A stretch of 64,000 nucleotides of DNA from an uncultured virus (IMG/VR IMGVR_UViG_3300046171_000301) (IMGVR_UViG_3300046171_000301), one strand, 5' to 3'. Numbered from the stretch's first letter, positions 538 to 35,402 are shown. The notes: a model not told the origin generated them from the sequence alone. Numbers and translations: made by a program.

Positions 538-575
538 TGCCGGGGGTTTTTTCTTGTGCAATATACATTTCACTT

Positions 576-734
576 ATGGATTTCGACTACATAGACACTC
601 TTCGTGCACGTCTTGCACATGCTGAAGAGCAACTCATGATCGCTGACACTATGTCACAACAGTGTTACTGGGGTAACAAGTGTGATCAACTTGAGGCTTC
701 TATTAAAGCTATTAACTTTATAGAGGCTCTTTGA
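576..734 (+). CDS. small hypothetical early protein
   Basis: ORF track 537..734; internal ATG downstream of the hairpin is the more plausible start. Confidence 0.65.
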   Translation: MDFDYIDTLRARLAHAEEQLMIADTMSQQCYWGNKCDQLEASIKAINFIEAL

Positions 735-736
735 TC

Positions 737-859
737 ATGATTGCATTTGATTCTCAAACGATCATCCTTGCTGTTATCGGCATGGTCGGCTTGTTTGCTA
801 CCGCAACAGTCGTCAGCTATGCCTTTAAACGCAACAAGACAGGTACTGGACAGTACTAG
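737..859 (+). CDS. small membrane protein (40 aa, MIAFDSQTIILAVIG...)
   Basis: Hand-translated; one hydrophobic helix followed by a basic tail; ends just before a hairpin repeat. Confidence 0.6.
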   Translation: MIAFDSQTIILAVIGMVGLFATATVVSYAFKRNKTGTGQY

Positions 860-914
860 GACATACGCCGGCTAACGCCGGCTCTCCGTTTTGATGTTCT
901 TTATCTAAACGAAC

Positions 915-1079
915 ATGTCCGCTATCAAACACCTTCTCGAAGACAAGCTTGAGTTTGACGCCGAGATGGAACTCGAAGGTGAGCTCAACCCATGGGATGA
1001 CCCTGAGGTTATCGCTGAGCTTCATCGACTAGCAGACGAAAATCATCGGGCACAACAGATTCGTCGTCAGCCCTTTTGA
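915..1079 (+). CDS. small acidic hypothetical protein (54 aa)
   Basis: Hand-translated; fills the space between two hairpin repeats. Confidence 0.65.
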   Translation: MSAIKHLLEDKLEFDAEMELEGELNPWDDPEVIAELHRLADENHRAQQIRRQPF

Positions 1080-1138
1080 TTATCTTCCCTCGGTTAACAC
1101 CGGGGGTTTTTCGTCGTGTACTTCTTAACTTTACAGTT

Positions 1139-1294
1139 ATGAACTTTGACGACATGTTCCTCATCCCTAATGGCATGAATCAAGCTTCTGACATCAAGAC
1201 TTGGCTTGACGTTCGCTTGACTGCACTTCAGGATCCTGAGGAAGACTGTATGTCTACCTATGACGAGGAGGACACCCGTCCTATCCTCTTTTAA
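1139..1294 (+). CDS. small acidic hypothetical protein
   Basis: ORF between hairpin repeats, ATG at 1139. Confidence 0.65.
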   Translation: MNFDDMFLIPNGMNQASDIKTWLDVRLTALQDPEEDCMSTYDEEDTRPILF

Positions 1295-1370
1295 CTGCAG
1301 GTGGGGTCGGCTAACGCCGGCCCTTACCTTCATTGCCCCATAGGGCGATTGTTAAACATAGGAGACACTC

Positions 1371-1580
1371 ATGCGTTTCAAAATTCCTGGTCGGAATACA
1401 AACGTTCGTCTTTTCGAACGTGTCGAGACCACTGATCCCCAATACGACATCTTTGATGTAGGTATTGAGTACGAAGATGGTTCGATTGACTCACTCGTCG
1501 TACCGGGTAGCGGCTCGTACGCATCAGCTAAGGCATTCGTCAACCGTATTGACGAGAAGGCTGAGGCTGAAGTGCAGTAA
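1371..1580 (+). CDS. hypothetical protein
   Basis: AGGAG RBS upstream; lies between hairpin repeats. Confidence 0.75.
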   Translation: MRFKIPGRNTNVRLFERVETTDPQYDIFDVGIEYEDGSIDSLVVPGSGSYASAKAFVNRIDEKAEAEVQ

Positions 1581-1773
1581 CAGCTGCATAATCACCTCGC
1601 CGGCTTACGCCGGCTTATTTTTGTTTTTCCTGCAGCTTCCATGAATCCAGAAATGCTTCGGACATATGCGGTGTAGATATTACTTCTCTACTGACGCTTC
1701 GTCCAGCAACTACAGCTGACCATGGTGCATACAAAGGTCCCTGATAGTCTTTCTTTTTAGATTGATCGTGCAT

Positions 1774-2538
1774 TTATCTGAGGTTAAATGGACGTCGTGC
1801 ACTTCCGTACTCTTTACGATCATAATCAGTCTTTCGGCGATCTGGGGCACCTTTGCTTGCCATCAACAGTGCAGTTGCTTCAGGACTTCCTGCAAGTCTG
1901 CGGAACTCACTTCTGTCAGGTGCAGGGACATCCCGTTGGCCTCCACGTCTGTATCTCTCACCCGTATTGGGGTCTGTCCGATAGCTATCGTCTTCAGACG
2001 TACGGTATGGAGATTCATACTCTTCTTCAACAACGTCAGCAGCTGGATATTCCAGATTCATCTCTCTTTCCATAGCATGCTTACGTCCTAACTGATGCGC
2101 TGCACTATTAGCTGCACCGAATCCTCCCCCTACTAGACCAGCTGCCATGATGGTATCCATCGGGCTTAAATCAAGCTGACCTGGCTCCTGCATATCTGCT
2201 GGTCCACCTGTTTGTGTCATGAATGCATTAGTAAGTGCACTTAGACCCATTCCAGCTGCTGTGGCAGGCAAAGCGTATTTGGGTACAGCATTGATTGCTG
2301 GTGCTGCATGGGCTACTACACGTTCCACGCCTGTGAATGCTGGATCCCCAGCTTCAGGCTGTAAAGGACCACGCAGCGAAGGCATACCACCCCCCAGGGT
2401 GTGTCCGAAGCCTTTGACTGCACGTCCTACCCCGTTGTCGGGTAAACGGTCGTATTGATCGCTAATAAACTTAGAATATTGATCATCTTTCTCAGCTAAA
2501 AAGTCTCCCGCACGGCGGAGGTTCTTACGGATATCCAT
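1774..2538 (-). CDS. hypothetical protein, Gly/Ala-rich, possibly virion-associated
   Basis: Long minus-strand ORF; likely start MDIRKNL at 2538. Confidence 0.7.
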   Translation of the reverse strand: MDIRKNLRRAGDFLAEKDDQYSKFISDQYDRLPDNGVGRAVKGFGHTLGGGMPSLRGPLQPEAGDPAFTGVERVVAHAAPAINAVPKYALPATAAGMGLSALTNAFMTQTGGPADMQEPGQLDLSPMDTIMAAGLVGGGFGAANSAAHQLGRKHAMEREMNLEYPAADVVEEEYESPYRTSEDDSYRTDPNTGERYRRGGQRDVPAPDRSEFRRLAGSPEATALLMASKGAPDRRKTDYDRKEYGSARRPFNLR

Positions 2539-2587
2539 GAGCTCAGAGTTACAATATATATATTGTAAATGAAGCCACAATATTACT

Positions 2588-2764
2588 ATGCTTACCGTAT
2601 TACTGGCTTCAGTATTGCAACTAAATCTATTAACTTCATTTAATAACTGCAATGAAGTTCAAGCAATACTTTCAGAGAATGTAGAATCAGGATACATAAG
2701 CAAAAGAGAGGCTGATAAAATTTTAAGAAACTGCCGTAAATATCAAAAGAGATCTGCCGGATAA
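2588..2764 (+). CDS. small hypothetical protein with signal-peptide-like N-terminus (58 aa)
   Basis: Hand-translated; TAA stop is a hairpin-repeat loop. Confidence 0.5.
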   Translation: MLTVLLASVLQLNLLTSFNNCNEVQAILSENVESGYISKREADKILRNCRKYQKRSAG

Positions 2765-3190
2765 CTCCGGCTTCACTAACGATTGTATGAATGAAAAGCA
2801 AGTAGCTCCGCTTGGCCGAATCAAGCACTATGACCCCCGTAGGTCATTTCGTCGTATGGACGTATGTCCAAGATATAACTCTTCCAAACGCTGTCATTTC
2901 AGAGTTGTAGAAGACGAAAAAGGTTGGACAGCTGATTTAGACTGACTCAGTACTAAATTTACAATATAAGATGGCTCTTATAGCCAAATAACAACACTGT
3001 CGGCTAACACCGGCAGTTACAATTGATGTTCGATAATCATTTATGATTAACAACAGCGCTTTTTCAACTAAAGATTCACAACCTTTGACACGAGAAAAAG
3101 CTTTTGAACTTTTGAGAAGTATGTCGAAAGACAAGTTTCTTCAAAAGTTACATATCGATCACTTCAACAACTTAAACATAACCTCAAACA

Positions 3191-3316
3191 ATGGCCGTAT
3201 TTACTAAATCAGGTAATTTTGTCTCTAAGGCCAAGTTTAAAAAGACCCATCAAGGTAATTCCTGTAACTCCAAGCCTCGCAAAGGCAAGAAGTTATTGAG
3301 AGGTCAAGGCAAATAA
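3191..3316 (+). CDS. small basic protein (KKTHQG...RGQGK)
   Basis: Hand-translated 41 aa; resembles a common short basic cyanophage protein. Confidence 0.6.
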   Translation: MAVFTKSGNFVSKAKFKKTHQGNSCNSKPRKGKKLLRGQGK

Positions 3317-3371
3317 CAACCCTGCCGGATAACTCCGGCTCGGTTTTTTGATCGTTCTTCTCAGCAATACC

Positions 3372-3584
3372 ATGTCTGTGAATTTTGACTTTGAAATCAT
3401 CGATCGCTCCGGTGTAGCCGGTATCTCTCTTATCGTTGCTCGCAATGAAGATGCATTCCGCTATCTCACTGACGAGGCCGATATGTGCATCATGGACGAC
3501 GGCTCTGCGCCGCTCGCTACTGAGCATGTTGGAGATTTTATCTCTGATGCATCATGGGCTCACCTTTGCTGTGAGTATGCATGA
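3372..3584 (+). CDS. hypothetical protein
   Basis: ORF downstream of a hairpin repeat. Confidence 0.7.
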   Translation: MSVNFDFEIIDRSGVAGISLIVARNEDAFRYLTDEADMCIMDDGSAPLATEHVGDFISDASWAHLCCEYA

Positions 3585-3741
3585 TGGCCAACACGCCTAA
3601 CTGGATGCATCATTCCAGTAAGCAACAGAAGAGAAAGCTCAAGCCTGCGGCCCTGCGGGCTCGTAAGGCTGCATTGAAAGCTTTAAAGCGTAAATTGGCC
3701 GGTTAACTCCGGCTGTATTTTTTCTTGTTCTTTAAACCATA

Positions 3742-4125
3742 TTGATGGAAATCCCAAACGGTATCTCTACTGCTGATCTTGCTAGCTTGCTAGAGGATGC
3801 ACCTGATGAGAATACCTGCAATTGTTCAGATTCTAATCGTCTTTCCCAAGCACAAATCGAAGAAATTGCTTGTGATGTCCTTGACTCTGTCATGGACGAA
3901 TTGAATTCTGAAGATTGCACATTAGTTCACAAAGTCATTTGTCTAATGGCAATTAGTCGATTCAAGCTTTGGCATGAATCTCTTGCTGAAAACATGATTG
4001 AGGAGGGCATCCCCTTCGATCTTGTCAAAGGGTGGCTCTTCGACGCTGGCAAGCTTCAAGCTTGTGGACAGCTTCTGCAGTCCGTCAGCGTTTCTGACGA
4101 TGATTTCACTTGTGCTCATGCGTAA
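3742..4125 (+). CDS. acidic hypothetical protein
   Basis: ORF track; follows a hairpin repeat. Confidence 0.75.
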   Translation: MMEIPNGISTADLASLLEDAPDENTCNCSDSNRLSQAQIEEIACDVLDSVMDELNSEDCTLVHKVICLMAISRFKLWHESLAENMIEEGIPFDLVKGWLFDAGKLQACGQLLQSVSVSDDDFTCAHA

Positions 4126-4333
4126 AGTTGAAATCAGAGTTAACGAGCCCCCTCTTACTCGTTTTGTGGTGTCTGTCTCAACTGATGAAGAGACACCTGA
4201 GTGGCTAGAAGCCTCAGCCTTCAATACTTCTAAAGAAGTGAAAGAGTTTCTTATGGTTCTTGGGGTCTTTGACCCTGAGAAACCTGGTGACCCAATGTGG
4301 CCAGGTGATCCAATCAACCGAAAGCTTGACTGA
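4118..4333 (+). CDS. hypothetical protein
   Basis: ATG overlaps the upstream gene end; ends before a hairpin repeat. Confidence 0.65.
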   Translation: MRKVEIRVNEPPLTRFVVSVSTDEETPEWLEASAFNTSKEVKEFLMVLGVFDPEKPGDPMWPGDPINRKLD

Positions 4334-4387
4334 GACAATGCCGGCTAACGCCGGCTTTCTCTTCAGTGTTCACTTGAGTATCTACTC

Positions 4388-4567
4388 ATGTCTACTACTG
4401 AGTTACGTGCGTTCCCCCCTGTCTCCGATACTGTTGACTATGTCAAGCAGATCGACTGGCAGGACGTCCGTAACCGCCTCCGCAAAGGCGTCAACCTCAC
4501 TGGAGTCGCAATCGCTGTTGTAGGCGAAAAACTCCACGACCTCGGCACCTTCCTCGGCAATGTCTGA
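4388..4567 (+). CDS. hypothetical protein (59 aa, MSTTELRAF...)
   Basis: Hand-translated; overlaps start of the next ORF. Confidence 0.65.
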   Translation: MSTTELRAFPPVSDTVDYVKQIDWQDVRNRLRKGVNLTGVAIAVVGEKLHDLGTFLGNV

Positions 4568-4808
4568 TTTCATCACACGTTTCTTTGAGGAAAAAGACCT
4601 GGATAACCAGGTTTACGAGGTCACAAGTGCTAACGGTACCCACAACATTCTCTCTACAGACGATGTTGTATGGGCACTTAAGCAAACCTCTGGAACAGAA
4701 CGACAATCCATTGAACGAGTTTTACGTGAACTTGATCGTCGTAATGGGGATGTTCATCACTTCTTGAGACACATGGCTCAAGGTGTAGCCATCTCTCTTC
4801 CATTTTGA
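4560..4808 (+). CDS. hypothetical protein
   Basis: ORF track. Confidence 0.75.
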   Translation: MSDFITRFFEEKDLDNQVYEVTSANGTHNILSTDDVVWALKQTSGTERQSIERVLRELDRRNGDVHHFLRHMAQGVAISLPF

Positions 4809-4880
4809 ACTACTGGGTCGGTTAACACCGGCCCTTTTTTGATGTGGCCATTAGGCCGTAAACCGTAGATGTGATATCAC

Positions 4881-5099
4881 ATGATGTACACCCAGAAATC
4901 TCGTTGCCCTGTAACCGGACGTCTGTCCCGTAAGCGCAACCGATTCCATAGTGCAGAAGCCGAGCGTCAATATAACGCACGTCTTGGTACCGCAAGGCTG
5001 GTACGCAAGATCCTCCCTCGCAATGGCCATACCATCAAGTATTTGATGGATTATCGCCAAGCTGAGCTGGATACTCTCCGCAGTCTTCTGACTGATTGA
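4881..5099 (+). CDS. basic hypothetical protein
   Basis: ORF between hairpin repeats. Confidence 0.65.
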   Translation: MMYTQKSRCPVTGRLSRKRNRFHSAEAERQYNARLGTARLVRKILPRNGHTIKYLMDYRQAELDTLRSLLTD

Positions 5100-5154
5100 G
5101 ACCTTGGTCGGCTAACGCCGGCCTTTTTTCTCATTGTTCATTTTTTAAATTTCA

Positions 5155-5649
5155 ATGACCGAATTCACCAACTACGTCCAGTTCAACCAAGTGACCGTCA
5201 CCGGTCGCATTGCTAAGGCCGAAGTGGTTACTTCTAAGCGTGACAACGGTCAGTTTCTGGCTGTGACTGTTCTCACTACTCTGACCACAAACGGTCAGAC
5301 GTGTGCTTTCACATTCACTGACAACAATGGTCTCCTTAGCTTGCACAACACAGGTTATCTGCCTGTTGGTCGTCAAGTCACTGTCTCCGGCCACATTGCC
5401 GGTGTTAAAGAGACTTACGTCGACAATGCAGGCAACATCAACTTGTTGTCCACTCCTCAGATCAAGCTCTCTGGACCAATGATTCCTGATGGCGGCCTTG
5501 GTGCAATGCCCAAGGACAAGACAGCTGTTGTCTCCAAATCCACAGTGATCCGTCCGTCTGATGCAAACGCACAGGCTACGGCCCCTGTTGATGAAGCGCC
5601 TCAGCTGGCAACAGCCGGTGCTGGCAATGATCAGATCAAAGATTTCTGA
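5155..5649 (+). CDS. putative single-stranded DNA-binding protein (OB fold)
   Basis: NQVTVTGRI and GRQVTVSG SSB-like strands, disordered tail ending DF. Confidence 0.6.
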   Translation: MTEFTNYVQFNQVTVTGRIAKAEVVTSKRDNGQFLAVTVLTTLTTNGQTCAFTFTDNNGLLSLHNTGYLPVGRQVTVSGHIAGVKETYVDNAGNINLLSTPQIKLSGPMIPDGGLGAMPKDKTAVVSKSTVIRPSDANAQATAPVDEAPQLATAGAGNDQIKDF

Positions 5650-5720
5650 TAAAAGACTCCCTCCGGATTACTCCGGGGGGTTTTTTTATTTTCTAGAATA
5701 CGGACATCCGAGGACATCAT

Positions 5721-5960
5721 ATGTATGAACAATTTCAAGGCCCAGAATGGATTCAATGTCCTCTGGAGCCCTACCAAATAGTTAAGTCACGCTTTGGCCT
5801 TTATACCAGTATTGACACTAAAGGTACACGCATGACTACTGCTATGACAGAAGAGGCGTGCAAACTAGTTACTGAAGATATTCATTTGCCTGTTAGGCAC
5901 GGTTGTTATGACGGATGGGTCTCTAAAGGACGTTCTTCGTCTGTTGATGGAAAGCTTTAA
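5721..5960 (+). CDS. hypothetical protein
   Basis: GAGG RBS; ORF track. Confidence 0.7.
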   Translation: MYEQFQGPEWIQCPLEPYQIVKSRFGLYTSIDTKGTRMTTAMTEEACKLVTEDIHLPVRHGCYDGWVSKGRSSSVDGKL

Positions 5961-6760
5961 TGCTTTTTACCATTACCATTACCATTACCATTCATAGCTT
6001 TCCCAATAATTGCGGGTGCTCCGCCAGTATTAACAACAACAGTTTTGGTATTATCACTATCTATTCGTGAATCCCGTCCTGATTCTTGCTTAATTAAACT
6101 AATTAATTCATTTAATTTATCTTCCGCAAATTTATCTGCTGTATTTTCCATTCCCTCAGTTTCATACATAGATCTAGCTTTTCGTCCAGCTTTAATAGCA
6201 TTTCTCCATTGATCTTGACGTAGATAAGCATCGTCTATTATTTCCTTAGCAGTAGAAGCTGCGTAAGGTAAATATTCACGCGCAATGATCTCTAGCTCAT
6301 CAATAGTTGGATTGACCAATTCTTTCGTTAGTAATTTGTTAATTCCCATGTTTTGAATAAACTTGTTATTCGGTGATGGCTGCACTCCTAACTCGCGGTA
6401 ATGCCTATGCACATCATCATGCAATGGTTTACTGATATACATGGTTCCCTTTGGGTTACTACTTAAATTCAATTTAAGTTCATCACGAAATAAACTATTT
6501 AATCTTGCAATGTCATCCGGACTTTTTGCATGATCTAATATTAAACTTATTGTTTCTAATGGAATAATATGATGAAGCTTATCTTCAATATCACCTCTTA
6601 CAAAACTCAATGCAGTGTTATCACCTTGCATTAGTTTTTGAGCTTTATTATTTTCTACTTTGTATCCATTTGTAAATTGCATACCATAATTAGCCCTATT
6701 CTCACGAATAGTTCTATCTTTTGGAGCTGTTCTAGATGTTAATGGTTTATTTCTTGGCAC
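5957..6760 (-). CDS. hypothetical protein with HNH-like His motifs
   Basis: HHIIP...N...HDDVH pattern; AT-rich. Confidence 0.55.
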   Translation of the reverse strand: MPRNKPLTSRTAPKDRTIRENRANYGMQFTNGYKVENNKAQKLMQGDNTALSFVRGDIEDKLHHIIPLETISLILDHAKSPDDIARLNSLFRDELKLNLSSNPKGTMYISKPLHDDVHRHYRELGVQPSPNNKFIQNMGINKLLTKELVNPTIDELEIIAREYLPYAASTAKEIIDDAYLRQDQWRNAIKAGRKARSMYETEGMENTADKFAEDKLNELISLIKQESGRDSRIDSDNTKTVVVNTGGAPAIIGKAMNGNGNGNGKKH

Positions 6761-6886
6761 ATATGCCTATACCTTATGTTTACTCTTCTGTACTTATTTA
6801 AGTGGCATAAGATATTTCCTCCTCTAATAAGTTTATCTAATTCTTAATACTTACTAAGATAGATATAGTCGCCTTAACTAACTCTG

Positions 6887-7732
6887 ATGGGCAAGAAGAA
6901 AAAGTGGGCTAATTTAAGCCAAGCTCAAAAAGATAAGCACGGATCTAAGAAGGAGTGGGAGCAAGCTAAAAATAAAGCTGCTGCACGTAAAAACACTCCT
7001 GCTGAAAATCCTGCAAAGGCCGCTGCCCGGATTGTCAAAAATACAGGTGGCGCAAAATATAATCAGTTAAGTGACGTGCAGAAAACAAAAGTCGATCGCA
7101 AGACTTACAAACAAGCCAAACAAACACAATCAGTAACTCCTACTCCTTCCCCATCTCCTAACAAACCAAAAGCCGCTGCTGTACAACTTATAAATCAAGA
7201 TAAAGGTAAATTAAAAGAAAAAGATGCAGAAAGAATTGCTGGAGAGGCTGGACTGTCTGTCAATAAAATTATTAAGTTAGCTCAGAACAAAGTGAGCGAT
7301 AAAGTAATTGGCAAGAAACTAACTAAACCAACTTCTAATCAACCTGAGACTACTTCTACTCCTACTCCTACTCCTACAACACCGGGCGTAGAATCACCTG
7401 TTTATGGAAAAAGAATTGGAGCTCCTCCAGGAACAATGGGAACTCATGATTTTAAAGATAGTGACGGAGATAGCGTAGACGACCGACATCAATCAGGTGC
7501 AGGTATGCCTGACTCACGGTTTAAAACTCCCGAACAATCAACACAAGATTGGCAAGATGCTAAAACTAAAGCTACTGGATTCAAGGGTAAAGAAGCAAAG
7601 CCAGGTTATTCATATGAAGGCTCTAAATTTGATGCACAGTCATATATGCAAAATTTGACTGCTAACAATCAAACATGGCAAAACAAAGATAGACGGAAAG
7701 GCTCTACAAGCTATAACTTGAACCTAATGTAA
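6887..7732 (+). CDS. Lys/Pro/Thr-rich hypothetical protein
   Basis: 281-aa low-complexity ORF. Confidence 0.75.
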   Translation: MGKKKKWANLSQAQKDKHGSKKEWEQAKNKAAARKNTPAENPAKAAARIVKNTGGAKYNQLSDVQKTKVDRKTYKQAKQTQSVTPTPSPSPNKPKAAAVQLINQDKGKLKEKDAERIAGEAGLSVNKIIKLAQNKVSDKVIGKKLTKPTSNQPETTSTPTPTPTTPGVESPVYGKRIGAPPGTMGTHDFKDSDGDSVDDRHQSGAGMPDSRFKTPEQSTQDWQDAKTKATGFKGKEAKPGYSYEGSKFDAQSYMQNLTANNQTWQNKDRRKGSTSYNLNLM

Positions 7733-7898
7733 TGAATAATCAGAATTTAAATCCAGATATGTATCCTGGAATGAAAGATGATCCATATGGTTTTCCTATA
7801 AAAATGTCTACTGAAAAGTTGACAAAAAATGACTGGGTTGAGTATTATTATATTGAAGCAACTAGATATCAAGCTTTTATAAACTTCACTTCAAACAA

Positions 7899-8129
7899 AT
7901 GACTTGCAATAACTTTGATCACAAAGAAACTTCTGCGTATGGAACACGTAACTTCTACAAGAAAATGTTTGATGACTATCTTGCCGATGTAGGCGATGGC
8001 TATCATAATGCTGACAATCTTATTTTAGGTCTATTAGATTCAGCTTATGATTGGTTTGAATATCACGAAACTGCTGCTAAGCGATACAAAGGTTTCATAG
8101 AGAAAGCACAAGAGATCTGTAAAGATTGA
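7899..8129 (+). CDS. hypothetical protein
   Basis: ORF track. Confidence 0.7.
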   Translation: MTCNNFDHKETSAYGTRNFYKKMFDDYLADVGDGYHNADNLILGLLDSAYDWFEYHETAAKRYKGFIEKAQEICKD

Positions 8130-8478
8130 CAGATATGCCGGCTAACGCCGGCTTTATCTTTTGCGCTCACATTAATAGTGAGCTGTCCTATATCTACTGT
8201 GTTATGGCACTTGTAAAGCTTTCAGTGCAAATGAATGACGTTATTGTCACGACTTTGCGAAACCTCTCAGAGCAAGAATATCACTGTCCAGATACACTCA
8301 AAATGATTGCTGATGTTCTCGAACGCAGCAAAGAAGACAGTATTATTATGAATGAGTCCGAAGAAGAACAGCGTCAGGACTCCTCCAAGAAGGTTTCAAG
8401 TGTTTTTGCTGTTTCCGCTTGAGTAATTAACCGGGGTGCCAACTGGTGCCCCCACCCTTTCATTTATATCATTGACTC

Positions 8479-9736: not shown

Positions 9737-9799
9737 CAATCTGGTGAATGCAGCAAACTCATAATTTGCCTAAGGCGAGTTCGATCCTCGCGACCCTTA
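9727..9799 (+). tRNA. tRNA with CAT anticodon (Met or lysidine-modified Ile2)
   Basis: Cloverleaf; anticodon arm GCAAA-CTCATAA-TTTGC; T-arm GCGAG-TTCGATC-CTCGC. Confidence 0.88.
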
Positions 9800-9813
9800 C
9801 TGCATTTAACTAA

Positions 9814-10149
9814 ATGGAAAAACCTGACCCTTATGTTGAATTTTTAGAAAACTGGATACCAGGCATAGGTGAAAGTACTGAACTTCATGATCAATTACAT
9901 GATCACTTTCAATTGGGATACAGAATCAATGATGAAGCTCGTATTCTAGGCTTTCAACTAGGACATCATCCTGCAGGGTCGATATTTCATGTGATTGTGT
10001 TTTCTCTAATGAGTATGCTTATATATCCAAGCACATACAGAAATACGTGGCCTGACATTGTAGACTTTTACACGTCATATAATTTAGGTAAGAGATGGCA
10101 GTCAGTTTCTTACTGGTTCATCCCGACAAATATTCTTAAATTAAAATGA
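9814..10149 (+). CDS. hypothetical protein
   Basis: ORF track. Confidence 0.65.
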   Translation: MEKPDPYVEFLENWIPGIGESTELHDQLHDHFQLGYRINDEARILGFQLGHHPAGSIFHVIVFSLMSMLIYPSTYRNTWPDIVDFYTSYNLGKRWQSVSYWFIPTNILKLK

Positions 10150-10358
10150 CTCCCTTAGTGTATTGCCGAATTATCGGTAGTACTTTAATTGTGTTAGCTT
10201 ACTTTGTAGTTTTACACATCAATGTATTGACAGGAGCTACTATACATACAGTAGGGACATTAATGTCAATACCATTTTTTGTAACTACTAAATCGTGGGA
10301 TGTTGTTGCTATGAGGGCTTTCTTAGTCTTCATAAGCTTAAGTAAATTCTTCACGTAA
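10146..10358 (+). CDS. small multi-pass membrane protein
   Basis: Three hydrophobic segments. Confidence 0.65.
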   Translation: MTPLVYCRIIGSTLIVLAYFVVLHINVLTGATIHTVGTLMSIPFFVTTKSWDVVAMRAFLVFISLSKFFT

Positions 10359-10431
10359 TGGCCTATAGCTCAGTTGGTAGAGCAGCTGACTGTTAATCAG
10401 CCTGTCCCAGGTTCGAGCCCTGGTGGGCCAG
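10359..10431 (+). tRNA. tRNA-Asn(GTT)
   Basis: Cloverleaf; anticodon arm GCTGA-CTGTTAA-TCAGC. Confidence 0.95.
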
Positions 10432-10434
10432 TTA

Positions 10435-10508
<74 letters not shown>

Positions 10509-10511
10509 TAT

Positions 10512-10585
10512 GACTTAGTAGCTCAGATGGTTAGAGCGCTGCCCTGTCACGGCAGAGGTCGAGGGTTCGAGCCCCTTCTAGGTCG
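10512..10585 (+). tRNA. tRNA-Asp(GTC)
   Basis: Cloverleaf; CTGCC-CTGTCAC-GGCAG. Confidence 0.95.
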
Positions 10586-10611
10586 TTTAACTAGTTATAG
10601 TTAATACAAAC

Positions 10612-10685
10612 GCCCGCATAGCTCAGCTGGATAGAGCAGCTGTTTTGTAAACAGCAGGTCGTCCGTTCAAGTCGGACTGCGGGCT
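10612..10685 (+). tRNA. tRNA-Thr(TGT)
   Basis: Cloverleaf; GCTGT-TTTGTAA-ACAGC. Confidence 0.93.
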
Positions 10686-10946
10686 TCAATCAGCTGAATT
10701 CTCAGAATTCGTTAGTTGTAAATTATTTTCTTCACGAATCTCTTTTACAGTCTGCCTAAGTGAAGCGGCAGTCTTTTCATATGATTCAGCTCTTGACTCT
10801 AATACAGCAATTTCTTTTTTTGCTTCTTCTTGCTTATATTTTTTATATTCAGAATCAGGAATTACATACACATCTGATCCAAATGGAATTTCAGAGTATC
10901 CAGTGATGTGCGGTTGAAGATGAAACGGAAGACGGTAGTATGACAT
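10686..10946 (-). CDS. hypothetical coiled-coil protein inside the tRNA cluster
   Basis: ORF track. Confidence 0.7.
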   Translation of the reverse strand: MSYYRLPFHLQPHITGYSEIPFGSDVYVIPDSEYKKYKQEEAKKEIAVLESRAESYEKTAASLRQTVKEIREENNLQLTNSENSAD

Positions 10947-11033
10947 AGTTTGTATGCTGACTATAAAAAGTCTACGCTAATAAAGCAAGCTAGTGTAGTT
11001 ATTATGTGAGAGTAATTACCGAAGTAATTAGTA

Positions 11034-11106
11034 GGGGAATTAGCTCAGTTGGTAGAGCACCTGCTTTGCAAGCAGGCTGTCAGCGGTTCGAGTCCGCTAT
11101 TCTCCA
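11034..11106 (+). tRNA. tRNA-Ala(TGC)
   Basis: GGGGAAT/ATTCTCC acceptor with G3:U70; CCTGC-TTTGCAA-GCAGG. Confidence 0.96.
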
Positions 11107-11164
11107 TTGATAGTTAATAGATAAATTCATTTATCATAAATAGTAGTGTAACTTATCCAAGTAA

Positions 11165-11815
11165 ATGGCATACAAGCGGTTTGATGAAGAAGGATATTCC
11201 CCTCGCTACGGAAGTGGAACGGGCAAAGTCCAAAAAGATGAATTCTCAATTGACGGCAAATCGTGGGAGCATCGTAATCCTGGTACATTGAATGCTGGGT
11301 ATAAAAAAGGCACAGCAGGTGACCATACTCATAACCGTCATGCATCTAATGACTGGAATCCGCTGTACGATTACTCATTCGGACAAGTGCGTGATGCTGC
11401 AAAACAACTTGGAATTGGAAACGTAAATAAGAAGGAAGAAGTCACTAGCATTATTGACCATATACAATCAGGATCTAAACTAAAGGATGAAACCAAACAA
11501 GAACCAAAAGAAAAACCTGACCCCTACGAAGGAACTACAAAATTTCAACAAACAAACTTAAAACCTGTACAGCTCAGTCAACGAACTGCTGAAGCATTGG
11601 CAGGAGTGCAAGCGCACAGGCAAAGGTTTGATTCTGCTGCATCTAAAGCTAATGATATGAAAGATGCTTATGCACTAAATCTTAAGGGTAGTGTCGGTAA
11701 AAGAGGTCAAGGAGCACAAACAAGCAGTGGCTGGGACAATGGCATTAATGATGACTTTTATCAAAATAAGCTTGCTCTTACAAAGCAGTATTTGAAAAAA
11801 GGGTATAGAGCTTAA
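11165..11815 (+). CDS. hypothetical protein
   Basis: 216-aa ORF. Confidence 0.75.
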   Translation: MAYKRFDEEGYSPRYGSGTGKVQKDEFSIDGKSWEHRNPGTLNAGYKKGTAGDHTHNRHASNDWNPLYDYSFGQVRDAAKQLGIGNVNKKEEVTSIIDHIQSGSKLKDETKQEPKEKPDPYEGTTKFQQTNLKPVQLSQRTAEALAGVQAHRQRFDSAASKANDMKDAYALNLKGSVGKRGQGAQTSSGWDNGINDDFYQNKLALTKQYLKKGYRA

Positions 11816-11818
11816 ATA

Positions 11819-12066
11819 CGCTACGTCGCTACGTTCCGCTACGTCAAATTTCTATAAACCTAGTTTTTAATTATTAGCACTCAACCCTCTAGCAGCTTCT
11901 GTGTGCATTAAAAAAGAAGAATATATAAGCATTAGCGTAGCGAGTGTAGCGACTGAGTAGGATTACTAGTTATACCAAGGGATTTAGACGCTACGTTTAA
12001 ATCGTTAATATTTAACTAAGAACAAAAAACTGTAAAACAGTAAAACTGTAAAACTGCTAAAATGTC
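11819..12066. other. candidate replication origin / protein-binding repeat region
   Basis: CGCTACGT x4 plus inverted GTAGCG x2 around AT-rich DNA, then AAAAC(T/A)G(T/C) x4 in tandem. Confidence 0.5.
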
Positions 12067-12101
12067 ATTTCCAAATTTTTACATCTAAAATAGTAGGGTT
12101 T

Positions 12102-12283
12102 ATGGCAAATCACATGAGGGGCTTATCAAACGTGTAACTGTTCAAGTCCCTAAAGACTTACACCAACAGCTTAAGATCATTTCTGTCAAAGACGATACAA
12201 CTATGCAAAAGTTGATTCTTGATTCTATAAAGCTGTATTTACAGCAATACGAAAATTTAACCACTGATTCAGATTTCAAGTAA
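12102..12283 (+). CDS. ribbon-helix-helix (CopG/ParG-like) DNA-binding protein; start out of frame
   Basis: KRVTVQVPKDLHQQLKIISVKDDTTMQKLILDSI matches the RHH pattern; ATG at 12102 needs one extra base to join the frame. Confidence 0.6.
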
Positions 12284-12367
12284 AAAGTATTCAGCCGGTT
12301 AACACCGGCTTTAACCATTCGTGCTCGTCATAAACACGGCGAGTGTTGTTTATATGAGATCTAATTC

Positions 12368-13330
12368 ATGCCCGCAAATTTCACATCTGGCTGGCTCGGC
12401 AATGGAGAACGTGCATGGCACGGTATGGGGGTCGTCACTGACGGCACACTCCCGGCGCGAGAGGCGTTTGAAACTGCAGACGCATTATTCACTGTCGAGA
12501 AGCGAGCGCTTCAATACCCGACATTCTCATCTGTTGGAGAGAATGACGCCAATTGCTGGTCAAATACACCAGCAGGTGTCTTCGGAGTTGTCCGCACTGA
12601 CACCCAAGCCCTCCTCGGCATCGTCACCAAGCAATACGAGCTGGTGCAAAACGAAGCCCTCTTACGCATGGCGGAGTTCATCCGTGAAGAGGTCGACATG
12701 GACGCCGTCGTCGTACTTGCGGACGGGGCCAAAGTCTGCTTTACCGCCACACTCCGTGGTGCGGAAACGGACATCGTCCCTGGAGACACAATCAAACGTC
12801 GTATTGTTGGCTACGTAGGCCACGACGGCAAGACCGGCTGTGGTGCCAAGTTCACTAACATCCGTGTTGTCTGTCAAAACACTTTGACTGCAGCGCTTGG
12901 TGAATCCGGTGCTCACAGCAGCATTACTCACAAAAATGGTGCTAACAACAACTTCGATGCTCTAATTAACAGTATTGATGTAGCACGTCAGGACTTTGTC
13001 ACTGAGTGCGACCTGATGCGTGAATTCTCACGTGTGTCTATGGGTGTTGATGCCTTCCACGAGTTTGTTGATGAGGTCTACAACATTGACGACAGTCAAG
13101 TGTTCCGTAAGCGCGGTTATCTTGAAACTGCATTCCGAGTTGGCTATGGCCAAGAGTATGCGCCTTTCTCTCTGTGGACTGGCGTTAATGCCATCACACA
13201 GGTAGAGACAAGTACTCGTGGCACAACTGCTGCCAAGGGTCGCGCTCAATTTGCTCGTGGAACCTTCGGTGCTGGCGCTCAAATAAGCAAGCGTGCGTTT
13301 GCTGTAGCAAGTGACTTAGTCACTGCCTGA
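12368..13330 (+). CDS. DUF932 family phage/plasmid protein
   Basis: WHGMG, VRTD..LGIV..Y..VQN, HDG, TNIRVVCQNTL motifs. Confidence 0.88.
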   Translation: MPANFTSGWLGNGERAWHGMGVVTDGTLPAREAFETADALFTVEKRALQYPTFSSVGENDANCWSNTPAGVFGVVRTDTQALLGIVTKQYELVQNEALLRMAEFIREEVDMDAVVVLADGAKVCFTATLRGAETDIVPGDTIKRRIVGYVGHDGKTGCGAKFTNIRVVCQNTLTAALGESGAHSSITHKNGANNNFDALINSIDVARQDFVTECDLMREFSRVSMGVDAFHEFVDEVYNIDDSQVFRKRGYLETAFRVGYGQEYAPFSLWTGVNAITQVETSTRGTTAAKGRAQFARGTFGAGAQISKRAFAVASDLVTA

Positions 13331-13651
13331 TAGTTATGTACTTGGAATCCTAGTAAATGATGTTTATTAGGATTCCTGTTATTTAAAGAAACCCGCAATG
13401 AAATTATTTGACTTTAATTATCAATTTGATTTCGGACACGAATTTTATATTCGAGTATTATTCAACAAGCACTGGGTATTTTTTCTAGGGTCAGTATCTT
13501 GGTCTGAATATTCTGGTTTGCCTTTTCTCCAGATACAGTCTGGTAGTGGTTCGTTGCTAAGTATCATATTGAATGTTTATAAGTTTGGTATTTCTGTCGC
13601 TATTGCAAGCGTAATGGTCTAGTTTATATAAAAGTGGATCCGGCCTTTTAC

Positions 13652-13737
13652 GGGGGCGTGGCGGAATTGGTAGACGCACCAGACTTAAAATCTGTTGACT
13701 AGTAATAGTCGTGGGGGTTCAAGTCCCCCTGCCCCCA
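13652..13737 (+). tRNA. tRNA-Leu(TAA)
   Basis: Cloverleaf with long variable arm; CAGA-CTTAAAA-TCTG. Confidence 0.95.
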
Positions 13738-14121
13738 TAAGCTTGAGATTATCTCTCGCTTAATTATTGTTAATCGCTAATATTGTATTAGTCGCAGATA
13801 TATTTATGTCTCGTACTTACCGCAAAGAACCTCAAAATCGTACTGGCCTTAGGCTTCCAAAAACAACAAGAGAACGTCGACAGCTAAAAGGTTTAAAAAA
13901 TGATTTGAGAGATAATGATTACGATGTCTCGCCTAGAAATCGAATTAATCGATATATTCCTACCTCATACGATGACCTTTGGGCCAGCTCACTAAAGCAA
14001 AATCATTACCACAAAAATTGAGTATTAATTCTAACCAAAATGAATGTTAAGAAAGTTAAACTAATTATGTAGGCAAATGCCGATATACATAATTCACTCA
14101 AACTTGCATTCATTTAATCAC

Positions 14122-15207
14122 ATGACTACTATCTCTCAATCTAAATCCCGCATGTCGGGTTATAGCTGGGAAGAATTTTGTCAGTGGGTTGCAAGTACAA
14201 ACAATCGGCTTTATGTGGGCTGGTTTGGTGTGCTTATGATCCCCTGTCTTCTTGCAGCAACTATTTGTTTTATCGTCGCTTTTGTAGCGGCACCACCCGT
14301 AGATATCGATGGAATTAGAGAACCGGTTGCAGGATCTCTCCTGTACGGAAACAACATTATTTCAGGCGCAGTTGTCCCCAGCAGCAACGCCATTGGCCTG
14401 CACTTCTATCCCATCTGGGAAGCCCTTAGTCTCGACGAATGGCTCTACAACGGTGGACCATACCAACTTGTCGTCTTTCACTTCCTTATCGGTGTCTTCG
14501 CTTACATGGGACGCGAATGGGAACTTAGTTACCGACTGGGAATGAGGCCCTGGATCTGTGTTGCTTACTCCGCTCCCGTCGCCGCCGCCTCGGCTGTCTT
14601 TCTTGTTTATCCGTTTGGCCAAGGTTCGTTCTCAGATGGTATGCCTCTGGGAATCTCTGGTACGTTCAACTACATGCTGGTGTTCCAGGCTGAGCACAAC
14701 ATTCTTATGCATCCTTTCCACATGTTGGGAGTTGCTGGTGTATTCGGTGGAGCTCTTTTCAGTGCTATGCACGGCTCTCTTGTCACGAGCTCACTCGTTC
14801 GCGAAACAACTGAAAAAGAAAGCCTAAACTATGGCTATAAGTTTGGACAAGAAGAAGAGACTTATAATATTGTTGCTGCCCATGGTTATTTTGGGCGTTT
14901 AATATTTCAATATGCCTCCTTTAATAACTCTAGGTCCCTTCACTTTTTCTTGGCTGCTTGGCCTGTGGTTGGTATTTGGTTTACTAGCCTTGGTGTTAGC
15001 ACTATGGCTTTCAATCTTAACGGATTTAACTTTAATCAATCCATTATCGATTCTCAGTCTCGTGTCATTAATACTTGGGCCGATATTCTCAATCGTCAGG
15101 GACTAGGTATGGAAGTGATGCACGAGCGCAACGCTCACAACTTTCCTCTCGACCTCGCTGCTGCATCTACAACTAAAGTGGCACTTGTTGCCCCATCTGT
15201 TGGATGA
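14122..15207 (+). CDS. psbA: photosystem II D1 protein
   Basis: [37 protein letters not shown]; start MTTISQ at 14122. Confidence 0.99.
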
Positions 15208-15266
15208 TCTAGCTATATTTAATGAATAGTATTTCAGTTAGATTTACTTGCATCTACGACTTGAAT

Positions 15267-15294
15267 GCCCTGGCAGCAATGCTGGGGCTTTCTT
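15267..15294 (+). terminator. probable intrinsic terminator after psbA
   Basis: GCCCTGGCA-GCAA-TGCTGGGGC followed by TTTCTT. Confidence 0.6.
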
Positions 15295-15637
15295 GTACTT
15301 GTTATTCTTGAAATAGAGATATACAACTTACCCATGCGTATTTTAGGAATTGTCGCATTATCATTAGTAGTGTCTTCTTGTATGCCTAAGGTTACTGACA
15401 TTATTGAATCACAGGTCCCAGACGTAGAAGATATTAAACCAGAAATTCCTTCTGATTTAAAACAAGCTTTACCGCCTTTTAAATAAATGTCTGAATTAAC
15501 TGTTTCAGAGCAACTACTGCTTAAAAAGATCCTTGTCTTTTACATGCATCATCACATGTCATTGAGAAATCCTCAATACAATGATGTGAATCAAATACTA
15601 GATAAAATAAAAGCAAGAGTAATCGACTCACCTGAAG

Positions 15638-15874
15638 ATGATTGAAGCCGGCGTTACATTAGCTATTGCAGCTGCTGCTGGCCTAGCTACGATTACTACA
15701 CGCCTTCATGGACGTATTCATGAAGTTGATCGACGATTAGATCAAGTTGAATTGCGTGTAGCTGAACGCTATGTATCAAAAGCAGACTTAAGTGAAATGA
15801 TGACACGTATGGAAGATCATATGGTACGTATTGAAGAAAAATTAGACCGCATCACAGTCAGAACTCACGTCTAA
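15638..15874 (+). CDS. small membrane-anchored coiled-coil protein
   Basis: N-terminal TM helix followed by heptad pattern. Confidence 0.7.
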   Translation: MIEAGVTLAIAAAAGLATITTRLHGRIHEVDRRLDQVELRVAERYVSKADLSEMMTRMEDHMVRIEEKLDRITVRTHV

Positions 15875-15916
15875 TTGATGACTCTGTTATATTATTTATT
15901 GTCTAGATATTGACAA

Positions 15917-16108
15917 ATGACAGTAACTGAAAACGAACAAGGACAACAAAATATTTTTGCTAAAGAACCTACTATGTACACACAGGAGATTACCGTGACT
16001 CACAACGAAAAAGCTGAAATGCTGAACGGCAGGCTGGCAATGCTTGGAGTAATTGCTGCTTTGGGTGCATATGCGCTAACCGGCCAAATCATTCCAGGAA
16101 TTTGGTAA
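15917..16108 (+). CDS. hli: high-light inducible protein
   Basis: AEMLNGRLAMLG...TGQIIPGIW chlorophyll-binding motif. Confidence 0.96.
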   Translation: MTVTENEQGQQNIFAKEPTMYTQEITVTHNEKAEMLNGRLAMLGVIAALGAYALTGQIIPGIW

Positions 16109-16719
16109 TTTAAGTTTTGATTTTAAGTAGAAATACACAATAAAATAACCTCCAAGCCGGCTAACACCGGCTATATTTATGTTGTGCCCGGCGATTGGGC
16201 CTGTTATATATTTGATGGCTAAATGCAAATTTCAAAAGAAACACTTCAGGATCTTACTGAGATAATTGAAGACACAGTCCAATATTTCTGTGATACTCAT
16301 CAAGCATCAGGACAGCTTGCATGGACATGTATCGAAGCCTTGTCCGCCGCTAAGCTTGCAGAACTCAATGGAGAACTTTCAGCAATCAACGGTTGACAAT
16401 GACATTAGATACAGATAAAGTAAGAATGCACTGGGAAAACCTTGCAGAACATCTAAAATATCAACTTCCAACTTTAATAGACGGCGAAATTCTATATTGG
16501 GTCTACGAGACCGCAGCTGAAGGCCAATGCTCTGATCAAGACGAAGACACACTATATGAAATCCTCTCAGATATGGCTGAGTGGAAAATCCTTGTGTCTT
16601 ACGACGTCAATCCAACTTATGGCGGTGATAAAAGTCACCCGCCTTGTGACATATAAACCTTGGCCGGCTAATGCCGGCTATATCTATCGCGCCTTTGGGC
16701 AATATTCACTGAATTAATT

Positions 16720-31012: not shown

Positions 31013-31103
31013 GCCGGCTAACGCCGTCAATTATCCATGTGAATACATCGCAAATCACGCTGATATTCTTTATATTGAAATTGAGATTACGACATACAAA
31101 AAT

Positions 31104-35360: not shown

Positions 35361-35402
35361 TGTTCGCCATAAACCAGTAACAACAGCTACAATTAATATA
35401 TA

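What the first reader, a model, noticed from the sequence alone, without database searches (positions are those of the whole stretch)
540..16695. Fixed-distance YG element after each hairpin, absent from the two TTAC-loop copies
Seen: counting from the 3' CCGG, a pyrimidine-rich spacer ends in YG (often TGTTC, TGCTC or TGCCC) with G at +15 in 9 copies and +14 or +16 in the other TAA-loop copies. The two TTAC-loop copies (1599, 5657) have no such G and run into T tracts. Inference: loop identity and downstream element are coupled, as expected for a promoter with a ruler-defined start site or a processing site. The TTAC copies may have decayed to terminators.
Basis: partly seen in the sequence, partly recalled or inferred. 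Interest (0 to 1): 0.78.

Follow-up and report, generated by a model that had tools for sequence, protein, structure and literature searches.

The report
Hairpin-plus-TG-box joints between cyanophage early genes
An uncultured marine cyanophage separates its small early genes with one compact signal, a GC hairpin followed at a fixed distance by a conserved "TG box", which is real and conserved in related phages but matches no standard bacterial promoter, and what reads it is unknown.

Summary
The window carries 18 copies of the hairpin, all on the + strand (0.37 expected), plus one with a different stem at 350-365. Every TAA-loop copy has Y-G 13-16 nt after the 3' CCGG. Across 58 unique copies from the window and four related IMG/VR phage contigs, TG with G at +14..+16 occurs in 46 (10.5 ± 2.9 in shuffles). 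It persists when the stem sequence differs and when the spacer is not T-rich.

The claimed coupling to loop identity is not supported. TAAC-loop hairpins without the box exist. The ortholog of TTAC copy 5663 has a TAAT loop and still lacks the box. That site instead carries a conserved canonical -10 box.

No phage RNA polymerase was recognised, and -10-like hexamers are depleted in the units. My best reading (0.4) is an RNA-level gene-boundary signal. The hairpin ends or protects the upstream message, and the TG box marks where the next short, SD-less leader begins. The main rival (0.27) is a pause or antitermination (boxA-like) site. A hairpin promoter of N4 logic is not excluded.

This scan noted the same kind of element earlier on other cyanophage DNA.

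The parts
350..396 (+). First unit, with a different stem: hairpin 350-365 (CACGCC-TAAC-GGCGTG), TG box G at 378, ATG at 397
   Evidence: the same position is kept in G002 with yet another stem
527..575 (+). Unit: hairpin 527-546 (8 bp, TAAT loop, T6 run), G at 558 (also 556), ATG 576. The loop TAA is the stop codon of ORF 397-537
867..914 (+). Unit: hairpin 867-882, TG box TGTTCTTTA with G at 896, ATG 915
1087..1138 (+). Unit: hairpin 1087-1106 (8 bp, T5 run), G at 1118, ATG 1139
1303..1370 (+). Unit with second hairpin: hairpin 1303-1324, G at 1335 begins GCCCC-ATA-GGGC, SD-like AGGAG, ATG 1371. The spacer is not T-rich
1599..1628 (+). TTAC-loop hairpin 1599-1614 plus T-rich tail, no TG box. 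It ends + strand ORF 1371-1580 and faces - strand ORFs: a plain terminator
2756..2786 (+). Unit: hairpin 2756-2771, G at 2785. The loop TAA is the stop of ORF 2588-2764. The spacer is not T-rich
2996..3042 (+). Unit: hairpin 2996-3017 (C:A at the loop-closing position), G at 3028, ATG 3043
3324..3371 (+). Unit: hairpin 3324-3339, T6 run, CG with G at 3354 (+16), ATG 3372. The G002 ortholog has another stem (GTCGC-TAATTC-GCGAC)
3696..3744 (+). Unit: hairpin 3696-3715, TG box TGTTCTTTA with G at 3727, ATG 3745. The loop TAA is the stop of ORF 3581-3706
4340..4387 (+). Unit: hairpin 4340-4355, G at 4368 (+14), ATG 4388. G002 has one extra gene cassette here, flanked by two hairpins
4815..4880 (+). 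Unit with second hairpin: hairpin 4815-4834 (T6 run), G at 4846 begins GGCC-ATTA-GGCC. G002 has GGTC-ATTT-GACC, a compensatory change. ATG 4881
5106..5154 (+). Unit: hairpin 5106-5123 (T6 run), G at 5136, ATG 5155. The G002 ortholog has stem GGCCGC-TAATTC-GCGGCC with the same TGTTCA box
5659..5720 (+). TTAC-loop terminator 5659-5680 (9 bp, T7 run), no TG box. It is followed by the -10-like TAGAAT (5693-5698), SD-like GAGGA and ATG 5721
8137..8203 (+). Unit with second hairpin: hairpin 8137-8152, G at 8165 begins GCTCAC-N7-GTGAGC (stem kept in G002 with loop changes)
12293..12367 (+). Unit with second hairpin: hairpin 12293-12310, G at 12323 (also 12321), before the DUF932 gene at 12368. The spacer is not T-rich
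16155..16222 (+). Unit with second hairpin: hairpin 16155-16172 (C:A at the closing position), G at 16184/16186, GCCCGG-CGA-TTGGGC, ATG 16223
16661..16719 (+). Unit: hairpin 16661-16680 (TAAT loop), CG with G at 16691, ATG 16720. The spacer is not T-rich
31013..31045 (+). Degenerate copy (3' arm CCGT) after ORF 30599-31012, TG with G at 31041

Best explanation
Each copy is a two-part gene-boundary signal that acts on the + strand transcript of the phage's early and middle genes.

Part 1 is a GC-rich RNA hairpin of 6-9 bp with a UAAC-type loop. It sits 4-9 nt after the upstream stop codon, or has that stop in its own loop. It ends or attenuates the upstream message where a U tract follows, and protects its 3' end.

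Part 2 is the TG box (D-T-G-Y-Y-C, often TGTTCTTTA). Its G lies 21.5 nt (±1) from the loop centre. It marks the first nucleotides of the next gene's leader. The 5' end of the downstream message is made at or next to this G. That leaves either an 18-21 nt leader without a Shine-Dalgarno sequence or a flush 5'-terminal hairpin.

Shown: the anatomy, the ruler, the strand bias, stem covariation, conservation in relatives, and the absence of sigma-70 elements.
Inferred: that an RNA end is made at the G, and how. Within this reading I put cutting of read-through RNA by an unidentified hairpin-guided nuclease at about 0.25, and a fresh start by an unidentified hairpin-reading polymerase or factor at about 0.15.
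For: (1) TG is anchored to the hairpin: 46 of 58 copies against 10.5 ± 2.9. In a stem-agnostic scan the peak lies at 21.5 nt from the loop centre, on the early strand only (74 against a background of about 22). Among hairpins with non-CCGG stems the box is present in 14 of 36 on the early strand and 1 of 10 on the late strand. It is also present in 5 window copies whose spacer is not T-rich.
(2) Conservation continues 3' of the G: +1 is Y in 47 of 52, +3 is C in 33 of 52, and -2 is never C in 52.
(3) The G-to-ATG distance peaks at 18 (13 of 52), and 27 of 52 fall at 16-21. An unsupervised motif search found the start codon at +30..+38.
(4) GC-rich second hairpins begin at +12..+16 in 13 of 58 copies, 8 of them at +14, against about 0.15 per position in shuffles. 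Compensatory changes between orthologs support them.
(5) The fold favours the + strand. All 6 stem pairs covary (these rows were chosen as hairpins). G:T-type pairs outnumber C:A-type pairs 14 to 4 at unconstrained positions. The same loops occur on ordinary terminators of both gene blocks.
(6) A unit precedes the first gene (350-396), and units lie only between same-strand genes.
(7) Units are cassette seams. G002 has one extra gene between two hairpins where the window has a single hairpin at 4340.
Against: No RNA end was observed. The only RNA run holding this DNA is kept as contigs.

For a cut: the box does not fit the cyanobacterial RNase E signature of A at -3/-4 and U at +2 (PMC8682795, passages read). 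The stems are far too short for RNase III. Four window hairpins look like efficient terminators (7-8 bp plus T5-6), so cutting alone would not express the genes behind them.

For a start: there is no -10 or -35 element. TANNNT hexamers placed for a start at the G occur in 10 of 58 copies against 7.9 expected, and between the box and the ATG in 9 of 58 against 23.0 ± 3.4. No RNA polymerase was recognised by Pfam PF00940 in five relatives, by PHROGs on 47 window and 40 G001 proteins, or by motif scans.

The T before the G is often paired in the second hairpins, which a start at the G would leave out. GYYC may also simply be a convenient 5' arm for those hairpins.
Confidence: 0.4

Rival explanations
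1. Pause or antitermination site (nut-like). Host RNA polymerase starts at a few left-end promoters and reads the whole early block. Once the hairpin has emerged, the enzyme meets a Y|G step about 11-13 nt downstream, which is the geometry of a hairpin-stabilised pause. The TG box RNA resembles boxA. At that point host Nus factors, or a small phage RNA-binding protein that recognises the conserved UAAC loop, decide between termination and read-through.
For: Units lie only inside same-strand gene runs. Restarts after - strand genes (before 2588 and 6887) use AT-rich, canonical-looking regions instead. Strong terminator-like hairpins precede genes that must be expressed. The consensus TGTYCTTTA resembles the enterobacterial boxA motif TGCTCTTTAACAA (recalled): mean 4.7 of 11 matches against 3.3 ± 0.2 in shuffles. 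Y at -1 and G at +1 is the recalled consensus of elemental pauses. The helix often continues to +3 (39 of 65 against 26.7 ± 3.8), which puts the T 11 nt from its base. The conserved loop and upper stem suggest a protein reader. Several early ORFs are small and very basic, for example 3581-3706 and 4881-5099.
Against: Only 11 of 52 boxes match the recalled boxA at 7 or more of 11 positions, and 3 at 8 or more. The boxA of a marine Synechococcus, shared by its rrn leader and spacer, is GAACCTTGACAA. The boxes match it no better than 3.5 of 11, and the window holds no such site above chance. The recalled G at -10 of the pause consensus is absent, since positions +4/+5 are T or A. This reading does not explain the fixed distance to the ATG or the second hairpins that start at the box. 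No N-like, Q-like or other known antiterminator was found.
Confidence: 0.27
2. DNA-level signal. The hairpin and TG box would be a recombination seam, a priming signal for the phage's AEP primase-helicase (26241-28478), or the operator of a DNA-binding protein. The link to genes would then follow only from the need to lie between them.
For: Cassette gain and loss occurs at the hairpins. DNA-run joints end at hairpin edges, but only weakly: short sides, 90% likeness. G-Y-Y triplets resemble recalled phage primase recognition triplets. GTTC-rich repeats without hairpins cluster in the non-coding left end (60-300) and are shared with G001. The template-strand loop GTTA is a recalled stable GNNA-type DNA loop.
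Against: All copies share the gene strand. They keep a fixed distance to start codons and sit just behind stop codons. Wobble pairs favour folding of the + strand. Recombination between repeats needs no ruler and no box.
Confidence: 0.1
3. No separate function. The units descend from one duplicated cassette border, and the TG is inherited sequence or the mere end of a terminator's U tract.
For: The copies are clearly related. Many spacers are T-rich, so a non-T base must end them somewhere.
Against: Spacers have diverged almost completely while T-G has not. The box is kept with unrelated stems and in units whose spacer is not T-rich. Orthologs with a 1-nt spacer indel keep the box at +14 or +15. 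C is excluded at -2.
Confidence: 0.06

Closest known systems
PeSLs (promoter-early stem-loops) of T4-type phages (Arbiol et al. 2010, PMC2839356, passages read; Comeau et al. 2014, PMC4122927, one passage read)
   Same: Many copies of a compact intergenic unit with a GC stem-loop stand in front of small early orphan genes. The units act as seams for gain and loss of single-gene cassettes. G:T pairs occur in the stems.
   Different: A PeSL contains a strong sigma-70 promoter (-35, -10, AT-rich upstream part) and a Shine-Dalgarno sequence. These units have neither. -10-like hexamers are depleted, and a TG box sits at a ruler distance from the hairpin instead.
Hairpin promoters of coliphage N4 virion RNA polymerase (review PMC4496689, passages read)
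   Same: A small GC hairpin with a conserved loop, a ruler-like spacer, then a fixed G. Both occur in the early region of a phage whose late genes carry host-type -10 boxes.
   Different: N4 has a 5-7 bp stem with a 3-nt loop centred at -11, only three promoters, and a giant virion polymerase. Here the loop has 4 (or 6) nt and its centre lies 21.5 nt from the G. There are 17-20 copies per genome and no polymerase was recognised.
nut sites and rrn antitermination leaders (boxB hairpin plus boxA; recalled from textbook knowledge)
   Same: A hairpin and a short pyrimidine-rich box at fixed spacing in the transcribed leader of phage early operons that contain terminators. The box consensus resembles boxA.
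   Different: The resemblance holds for a minority of copies. The host's own boxA is different. There are many copies instead of two, and the hairpin here itself looks like the terminator.
RNase III processing sites between T7 early genes (recalled)
   Same: Conserved hairpins punctuate a one-strand chain of early genes, leaving 3' hairpins and defined 5' ends.
   Different: T7 sites are long double-stranded structures of about 20 bp or more. These stems are 6-9 bp, so another enzyme would be needed.

Membership tests
PeSL (T4-type promoter-terminator cassette) | Intergenic stem-loop able to act as a terminator or attenuator | tested here: met
   GC stems of 6-9 bp with folding energies of -9 to -17 kcal/mol. 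At least 6 T in the next 10 nt in 10 of the 15 CCGG-type window hairpins folded (3 of the 18 were not in that scan).
PeSL (T4-type promoter-terminator cassette) | Sigma-70-like early promoter (-35 and -10) inside the unit | tested here: not met
   TANNNT hexamers: 10 of 58 against 7.9 expected in the spacer, and 9 of 58 against 23.0 ± 3.4 between the box and the ATG. The consensus scan shows no enrichment of promoter-like sites in 1-17000 (31 against 36.2 ± 5.8).
PeSL (T4-type promoter-terminator cassette) | Seams of cassette insertion, deletion or replacement between close relatives | tested here: met
   G002 has an extra cassette between hairpins at 3601 and 3973, against the single window hairpin at 4340. 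The early region is a mosaic. Mini-circles cannot be tested here.
N4-type hairpin promoter | 5-7 bp stem with a 3-nt loop centred 11 nt before the start | tested here: not met
   Loops are 4 nt (TAAC 59, TAAT 4, TTAC 3 of 66) or 6 nt. The loop centre is 21.5 nt from the G.
N4-type hairpin promoter | A virion-borne single-subunit RNA polymerase gene | tested here: not met
   PF00940 found in 0 of 5 relatives, two of them at least 90% complete. Its control also rang in no genome, so it is weak alone. The largest G001 ORF is 739 aa and is the primase-helicase. No polymerase family appeared in 47 window and 40 G001 proteins. No polymerase motifs were found. About 60% of the proteins are orphans, so an unrecognisable enzyme is not excluded.
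N4-type hairpin promoter | Triphosphate 5' ends at the fixed G | not testable with these tools
   Only contigs of one RNA run were available.
Intrinsic terminator | GC-rich hairpin directly followed by a U tract | tested here: inconclusive
   Met by about two thirds of window copies. Five units (350, 1303, 2756, 12293, 16661) have no T-rich tail yet keep the TG box.
boxA / nut-type antitermination site | Match to the boxA consensus of the host | tested here: not met
   The host-type boxA GAACCTTGACAA comes from a marine Synechococcus rrn spacer, with a like motif in the leader. Boxes match it at 3.5 of 11 against 2.9 ± 0.2 in shuffles. The window has 6 sites with up to 2 mismatches against 6.8 expected, none of them in a unit.
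boxA / nut-type antitermination site | Match to the enterobacterial boxA consensus (recalled motif) | tested here: inconclusive
   Mean 4.7 of 11 against 3.3 ± 0.2. Eleven of 52 match at 7 or more of 11. The strict form TGYYCTTTA occurs at only 2 window units.
Hairpin-stabilised (class I) transcriptional pause | Hairpin base 10-12 nt from the RNA 3' end, pyrimidine at -1, G at +1, G at -10 (recalled) | tested here: inconclusive
   Y|G is met. The spacing is 13 nt from the 6-bp stem, or 11 nt if the frequent extra pair at +3 is counted. G at -10 is not met.
Cyanobacterial RNase E site | A at -3/-4 and U at +2 in single-stranded RNA (PMC8682795) | tested here: not met
   No register around T-G gives both features (profile against the passages read).

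The most novel reading that the evidence does not exclude
The units are true hairpin promoters. A polymerase or an injected factor that no current profile recognises reads a small extruded hairpin and starts RNA at a G set by a ruler of about 21 nt. This would be N4 logic in an unrelated, abundant lineage of temperate-looking marine cyanophages whose late genes use ordinary host -10 boxes.
Probability: 0.15. Interest if true: 0.9.

Novelty: new variant of a known kind. Interest (0 to 1): 0.6.

Why it matters
This lineage is the uncultured psbA-, talC-, integrase- and split-polymerase-bearing cyanophage group of Flores-Uribe et al. (bioRxiv 10.1101/325100). It appears in many marine metagenomes: 24 runs from 18 studies hold parts of the stretch. 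How it controls its early genes is unknown.

A rigid, portable boundary signal that is not a sigma-70 promoter implies an unidentified reader, which could be a nuclease, a polymerase or an RNA-binding factor. It would also explain how single-gene cassettes are swapped without loss of expression.

The signal is short and sharply defined, so the question can be tested directly by 5'- and 3'-end mapping or with reporters. The signal could also serve to annotate early regions of uncultured cyanophages.

Tried and rejected
(1) Mini-ORF reading. The box is always ATG, GTG or TTG, but the frames that follow are 1 to more than 43 codons long. They often run out of frame into the gene and are not kept between orthologs: window 3699 gives MFFKPY-stop, while G002 2923 stays open. 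Rejected.

(2) Sigma-70 promoter in the unit: rejected.

(3) RNase E signature and RNase III: not met.

(4) Host-type boxA: not met.

(5) RNA evidence. One oligo-dT RNA run (X24) holds a tenth of the sampled words and is kept as contigs. A few pieces of 151-253 nt lie on the region, and one spans hairpin 2756-2771. Contigs show neither ends nor strand, and DNA carry-over cannot be excluded. No conclusion was drawn.

(6) Search for a hidden polymerase. The 702-aa orphan next to the early region of G001 has 232 homologs. It has no Pfam, PHROG or PDB sequence match and no lead from the ESM Atlas (best score 0.81). Its AlphaFold model is poor (pLDDT 62, pTM 0.27, mostly helices and disorder), so no fold search was run. 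The 498-aa neighbour has 31 homologs and no match and was not folded.

(7) No close relative exists among 50,697 deposited phage records. Megablast of 1-9000 found none, and tblastn of a 586-aa structural protein found none.

(8) No whole genome is held for the window.

(9) Rfam finds no known family at the units.

(10) A phage sigma factor (group-2-like) exists in G001 and G004. It is absent from the window's 64 kb, from G002 and from G003, so it cannot be the general reader.

Full report
WHAT THE WINDOW IS. The 64 kb belong to an uncultured cyanophage.
- The + strand block from 1 to about 37 kb carries small orphan genes and auxiliary genes: psbA (14077-15207), transaldolase (9083-9736), plastoquinol terminal oxidase and a high-light-inducible protein.
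- It also carries eight tRNAs, ribonucleotide reductase, thymidylate synthase, an AEP primase fused to a VapE-type helicase (26241-28478), and a split family-A DNA polymerase.
- The - strand block carries an integrase, tail-fibre and other structural genes.
- Nothing close exists among deposited phages.
- The gene set matches the lineage described from Red Sea and Tara metagenomes (bioRxiv 10.1101/325100). I searched that text, and it contains no occurrence of hairpin, promoter or terminator.

THE OBSERVATION.
- The hairpin pattern occurs 18 times, always on the + strand, against 0.37 expected.
Ten are at +15, four at +14 and one at +16. The two TTAC copies have none.
- An exact search for the 16-nt hairpin in IMG/VR returned 89 loci. 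Among them are four related phage contigs that I fetched whole: G001 77.9 kb, G002 57 kb, G003 33 kb and G004 67 kb. G005 duplicates G002 and was left out.
- These contigs hold 20, 7, 13 and 5 copies, each set on a single strand.
- Of the 62 copies not lying at a contig end, 60 are unique and 58 have a TAA loop.
- TG with G at +14..+16 occurs in 46 of the 58, against 10.5 ± 2.9 after shuffling. None of 5000 shuffles reaches 46, and the sliding control peaks only there.
- The non-window copies alone give 35 of 44.
- A further 65 hairpins from 78 other loci, several clearly unrelated GC-rich contigs, give 25 of 65 against 11.4 ± 3.0.

THE UNIT IS WIDER THAN THE CCGG STEM.
- A scan for any GC-rich hairpin shows one peak of TG, at 21.5 nt from the loop centre, on the early strand only.
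- Hairpins with unrelated stems (CACGCC, GGGCGC, GGTCGC, GGCCTGC, GCCCGC, GGCCGC) and loops TAAC, TCACTC or TAATTC carry the box at the same place. The count is 14 of 36 on the early strand and 1 of 10 on the late strand. Most early-strand misses are coding-region chance hairpins or plain terminators.
- Orthologous units of the window and G002 can have different stems and the same box: 5106 against G002 4738, and 3324 against G002 2546.
- On 42 chosen hairpins all six stem pairs show changes on both sides. These rows were selected as hairpins, so the percentage paired is by construction.
- At positions the search did not constrain, G:T-type pairs number 14 and C:A-type pairs 4. The loop-closing pair is C-G 35, T-A 17 and A-T 7 of 66. 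The fold therefore favours the + strand, that is the RNA.
- An extra pair at +3, beyond a mismatch at +2, is more frequent than chance: 39 of 65 against 26.7 ± 3.8.

ANATOMY OF A UNIT.
- The upstream stop codon lies 4-9 nt before the helix in 10 window units. In three it is the loop's own TAA (527, 2756, 3696).
- The helix has 6-9 bp.
- A 13-nt spacer follows. It is usually T-rich, but not in 350, 1303, 2756, 12293 and 16661.
- The box is D-T-G-Y-Y-C. Position -2 is never C in 52 aligned copies, -1 is T in 46 and C in 6, +1 is a pyrimidine in 47, and +3 is C in 33. T-T-T-A often follows.
- The start codon lies 18 nt after the G in 13 of 52 copies and 16-21 nt after it in 27. There is no Shine-Dalgarno sequence.
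- In 13 of 58 copies a second GC hairpin begins at +12..+16 and the start codon lies further on. Two such hairpins keep their stems between orthologs, one through compensatory changes and one while its loop changes.

WHAT IT IS NOT.
- It is not a sigma-70 promoter. -10-like hexamers are not enriched in the spacer and are depleted between box and start codon.
- Host-type -10 boxes are easy to see elsewhere: TAGAAT-like boxes before late genes of G001, and after the TTAC-loop terminator at 5659, conserved as TACAAT in G002.
- It is not a translated mini-ORF.
- It does not fit the RNase E signature.
- It is not the host's boxA.
- Rfam has no family for it.
- No RNA polymerase was recognised in the window or in the 98%-complete G001. 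Many proteins are orphans, and one attempt to fold the largest orphan gave a poor model.

LOOP COUPLING. Two TTAC copies are too few to carry the claim, and the relatives speak against it.
- Six of 58 TAA-loop copies lack the box.
- TAAC and TAAT loops sit on plain terminators.
- The ortholog of 5663 has a TAAT loop and no box.
- What predicts absence of the box is the context. Copy 1600 sits at the end of a + strand gene facing - strand genes, and copy 5663 is followed by a canonical promoter and ribosome-binding site.

HOW IT MOST LIKELY WORKS.
- The hairpin is an RNA element of the terminator and 3'-protector kind.
- The box is a separate signal measured from the hairpin.
- Three features point to the G as the first nucleotide of the downstream message: the constant short leader, the flush second hairpins, and the presence of a unit before the first gene. 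I hold this reading at 0.4.
- Within that, a cut by an unidentified hairpin-guided nuclease is about 0.25 and a fresh start is about 0.15.
- The chief rival, at 0.27, is a pause or antitermination site. It explains how the polymerase passes the four strong terminator-like hairpins and why units occur only inside same-strand runs. It does not explain the distance to the start codon, and its sequence match to boxA is weak.
- DNA-level roles (0.1) and mere shared ancestry (0.06) are less likely.

EARLIER NOTES OF THIS SCAN. Looked up after my reading was formed, notes on other cyanophage DNA describe the same kind of element. They mention a GC hairpin, a fixed spacer, a TGYYCTTT or 'TG' box, an 18-nt leader and second hairpins. 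I treat them as leads, not as support.

Noticed in passing
window 19183-19413 (+): A 76-aa homolog of translation initiation factor IF-1 (Pfam eIF-1a/IF-1, E 3e-15, above the cut-off) is encoded in the early/middle block. This is of interest given the leaders without Shine-Dalgarno sequences.
   Followed up: no
window 35401-35455 (+): Rfam glutamine riboswitch (RF01739) at 37.7 bits against a gathering score of 35.
   Followed up: no
window 60-300; G001 (L093) about 6850-7000: The non-coding left end is packed with GTTCAC / CGTTCA / GTGTTCACTCACG repeats without hairpins. The same motifs, including GTGTTCACTCACGTTT, occur at the matching place in G001. The core resembles the TG box. It may be an origin, an operator array or a promoter battery.
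   Followed up: partly
G001 (L092:6161-7102, - strand) and G004: A 313-aa group-2-like sigma factor (regions 1.2, 2, 3 and 4) lies among the head genes of two relatives. No copy was found in the window's 64 kb, in G002 or in G003.
   Followed up: partly
G001 - strand genes (listing); window 5693-5698: TAGAAT-like -10 boxes lie 20-30 nt before many late-strand start codons. The same box follows the TTAC-loop terminator at 5659 and is kept as TACAAT in G002.
   Followed up: partly
window 2551-2570: A perfect 20-nt AT palindrome (TTACAATATATATATTGTAA) lies between the divergent genes 1774-2538 (-) and 2588-2764 (+). It is a likely bidirectional promoter or operator.
   Followed up: no
window 1596, 16154-16156: Contigs of DNA runs break away from the window right at hairpin edges. 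One joint runs 1596 to 2059 with 38 other letters between (two runs). Others run 16109 to 16154 and 16018 to 16156 (one run). The sides are short and likeness was set at 90%, so this is only a hint that strains differ by cassettes bounded by hairpins.
   Followed up: no
window 39147-39235 and 39733-40596: A tRNA-Ser gene lies beside a tyrosine integrase gene, the usual layout of an attachment site.
   Followed up: no
window 13344-13376: A 15-bp AT-rich hairpin is directly followed by TGTTATTTAAAG, with the start codon 20 nt after the G. This is a box-like leader behind a quite different hairpin.
   Followed up: no
window 52205-58291 (-): A 2028-aa protein carries tail-fibre repeats and a laminin-G/concanavalin-like domain. 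It is the largest gene of the window and shows no polymerase features.
   Followed up: partly
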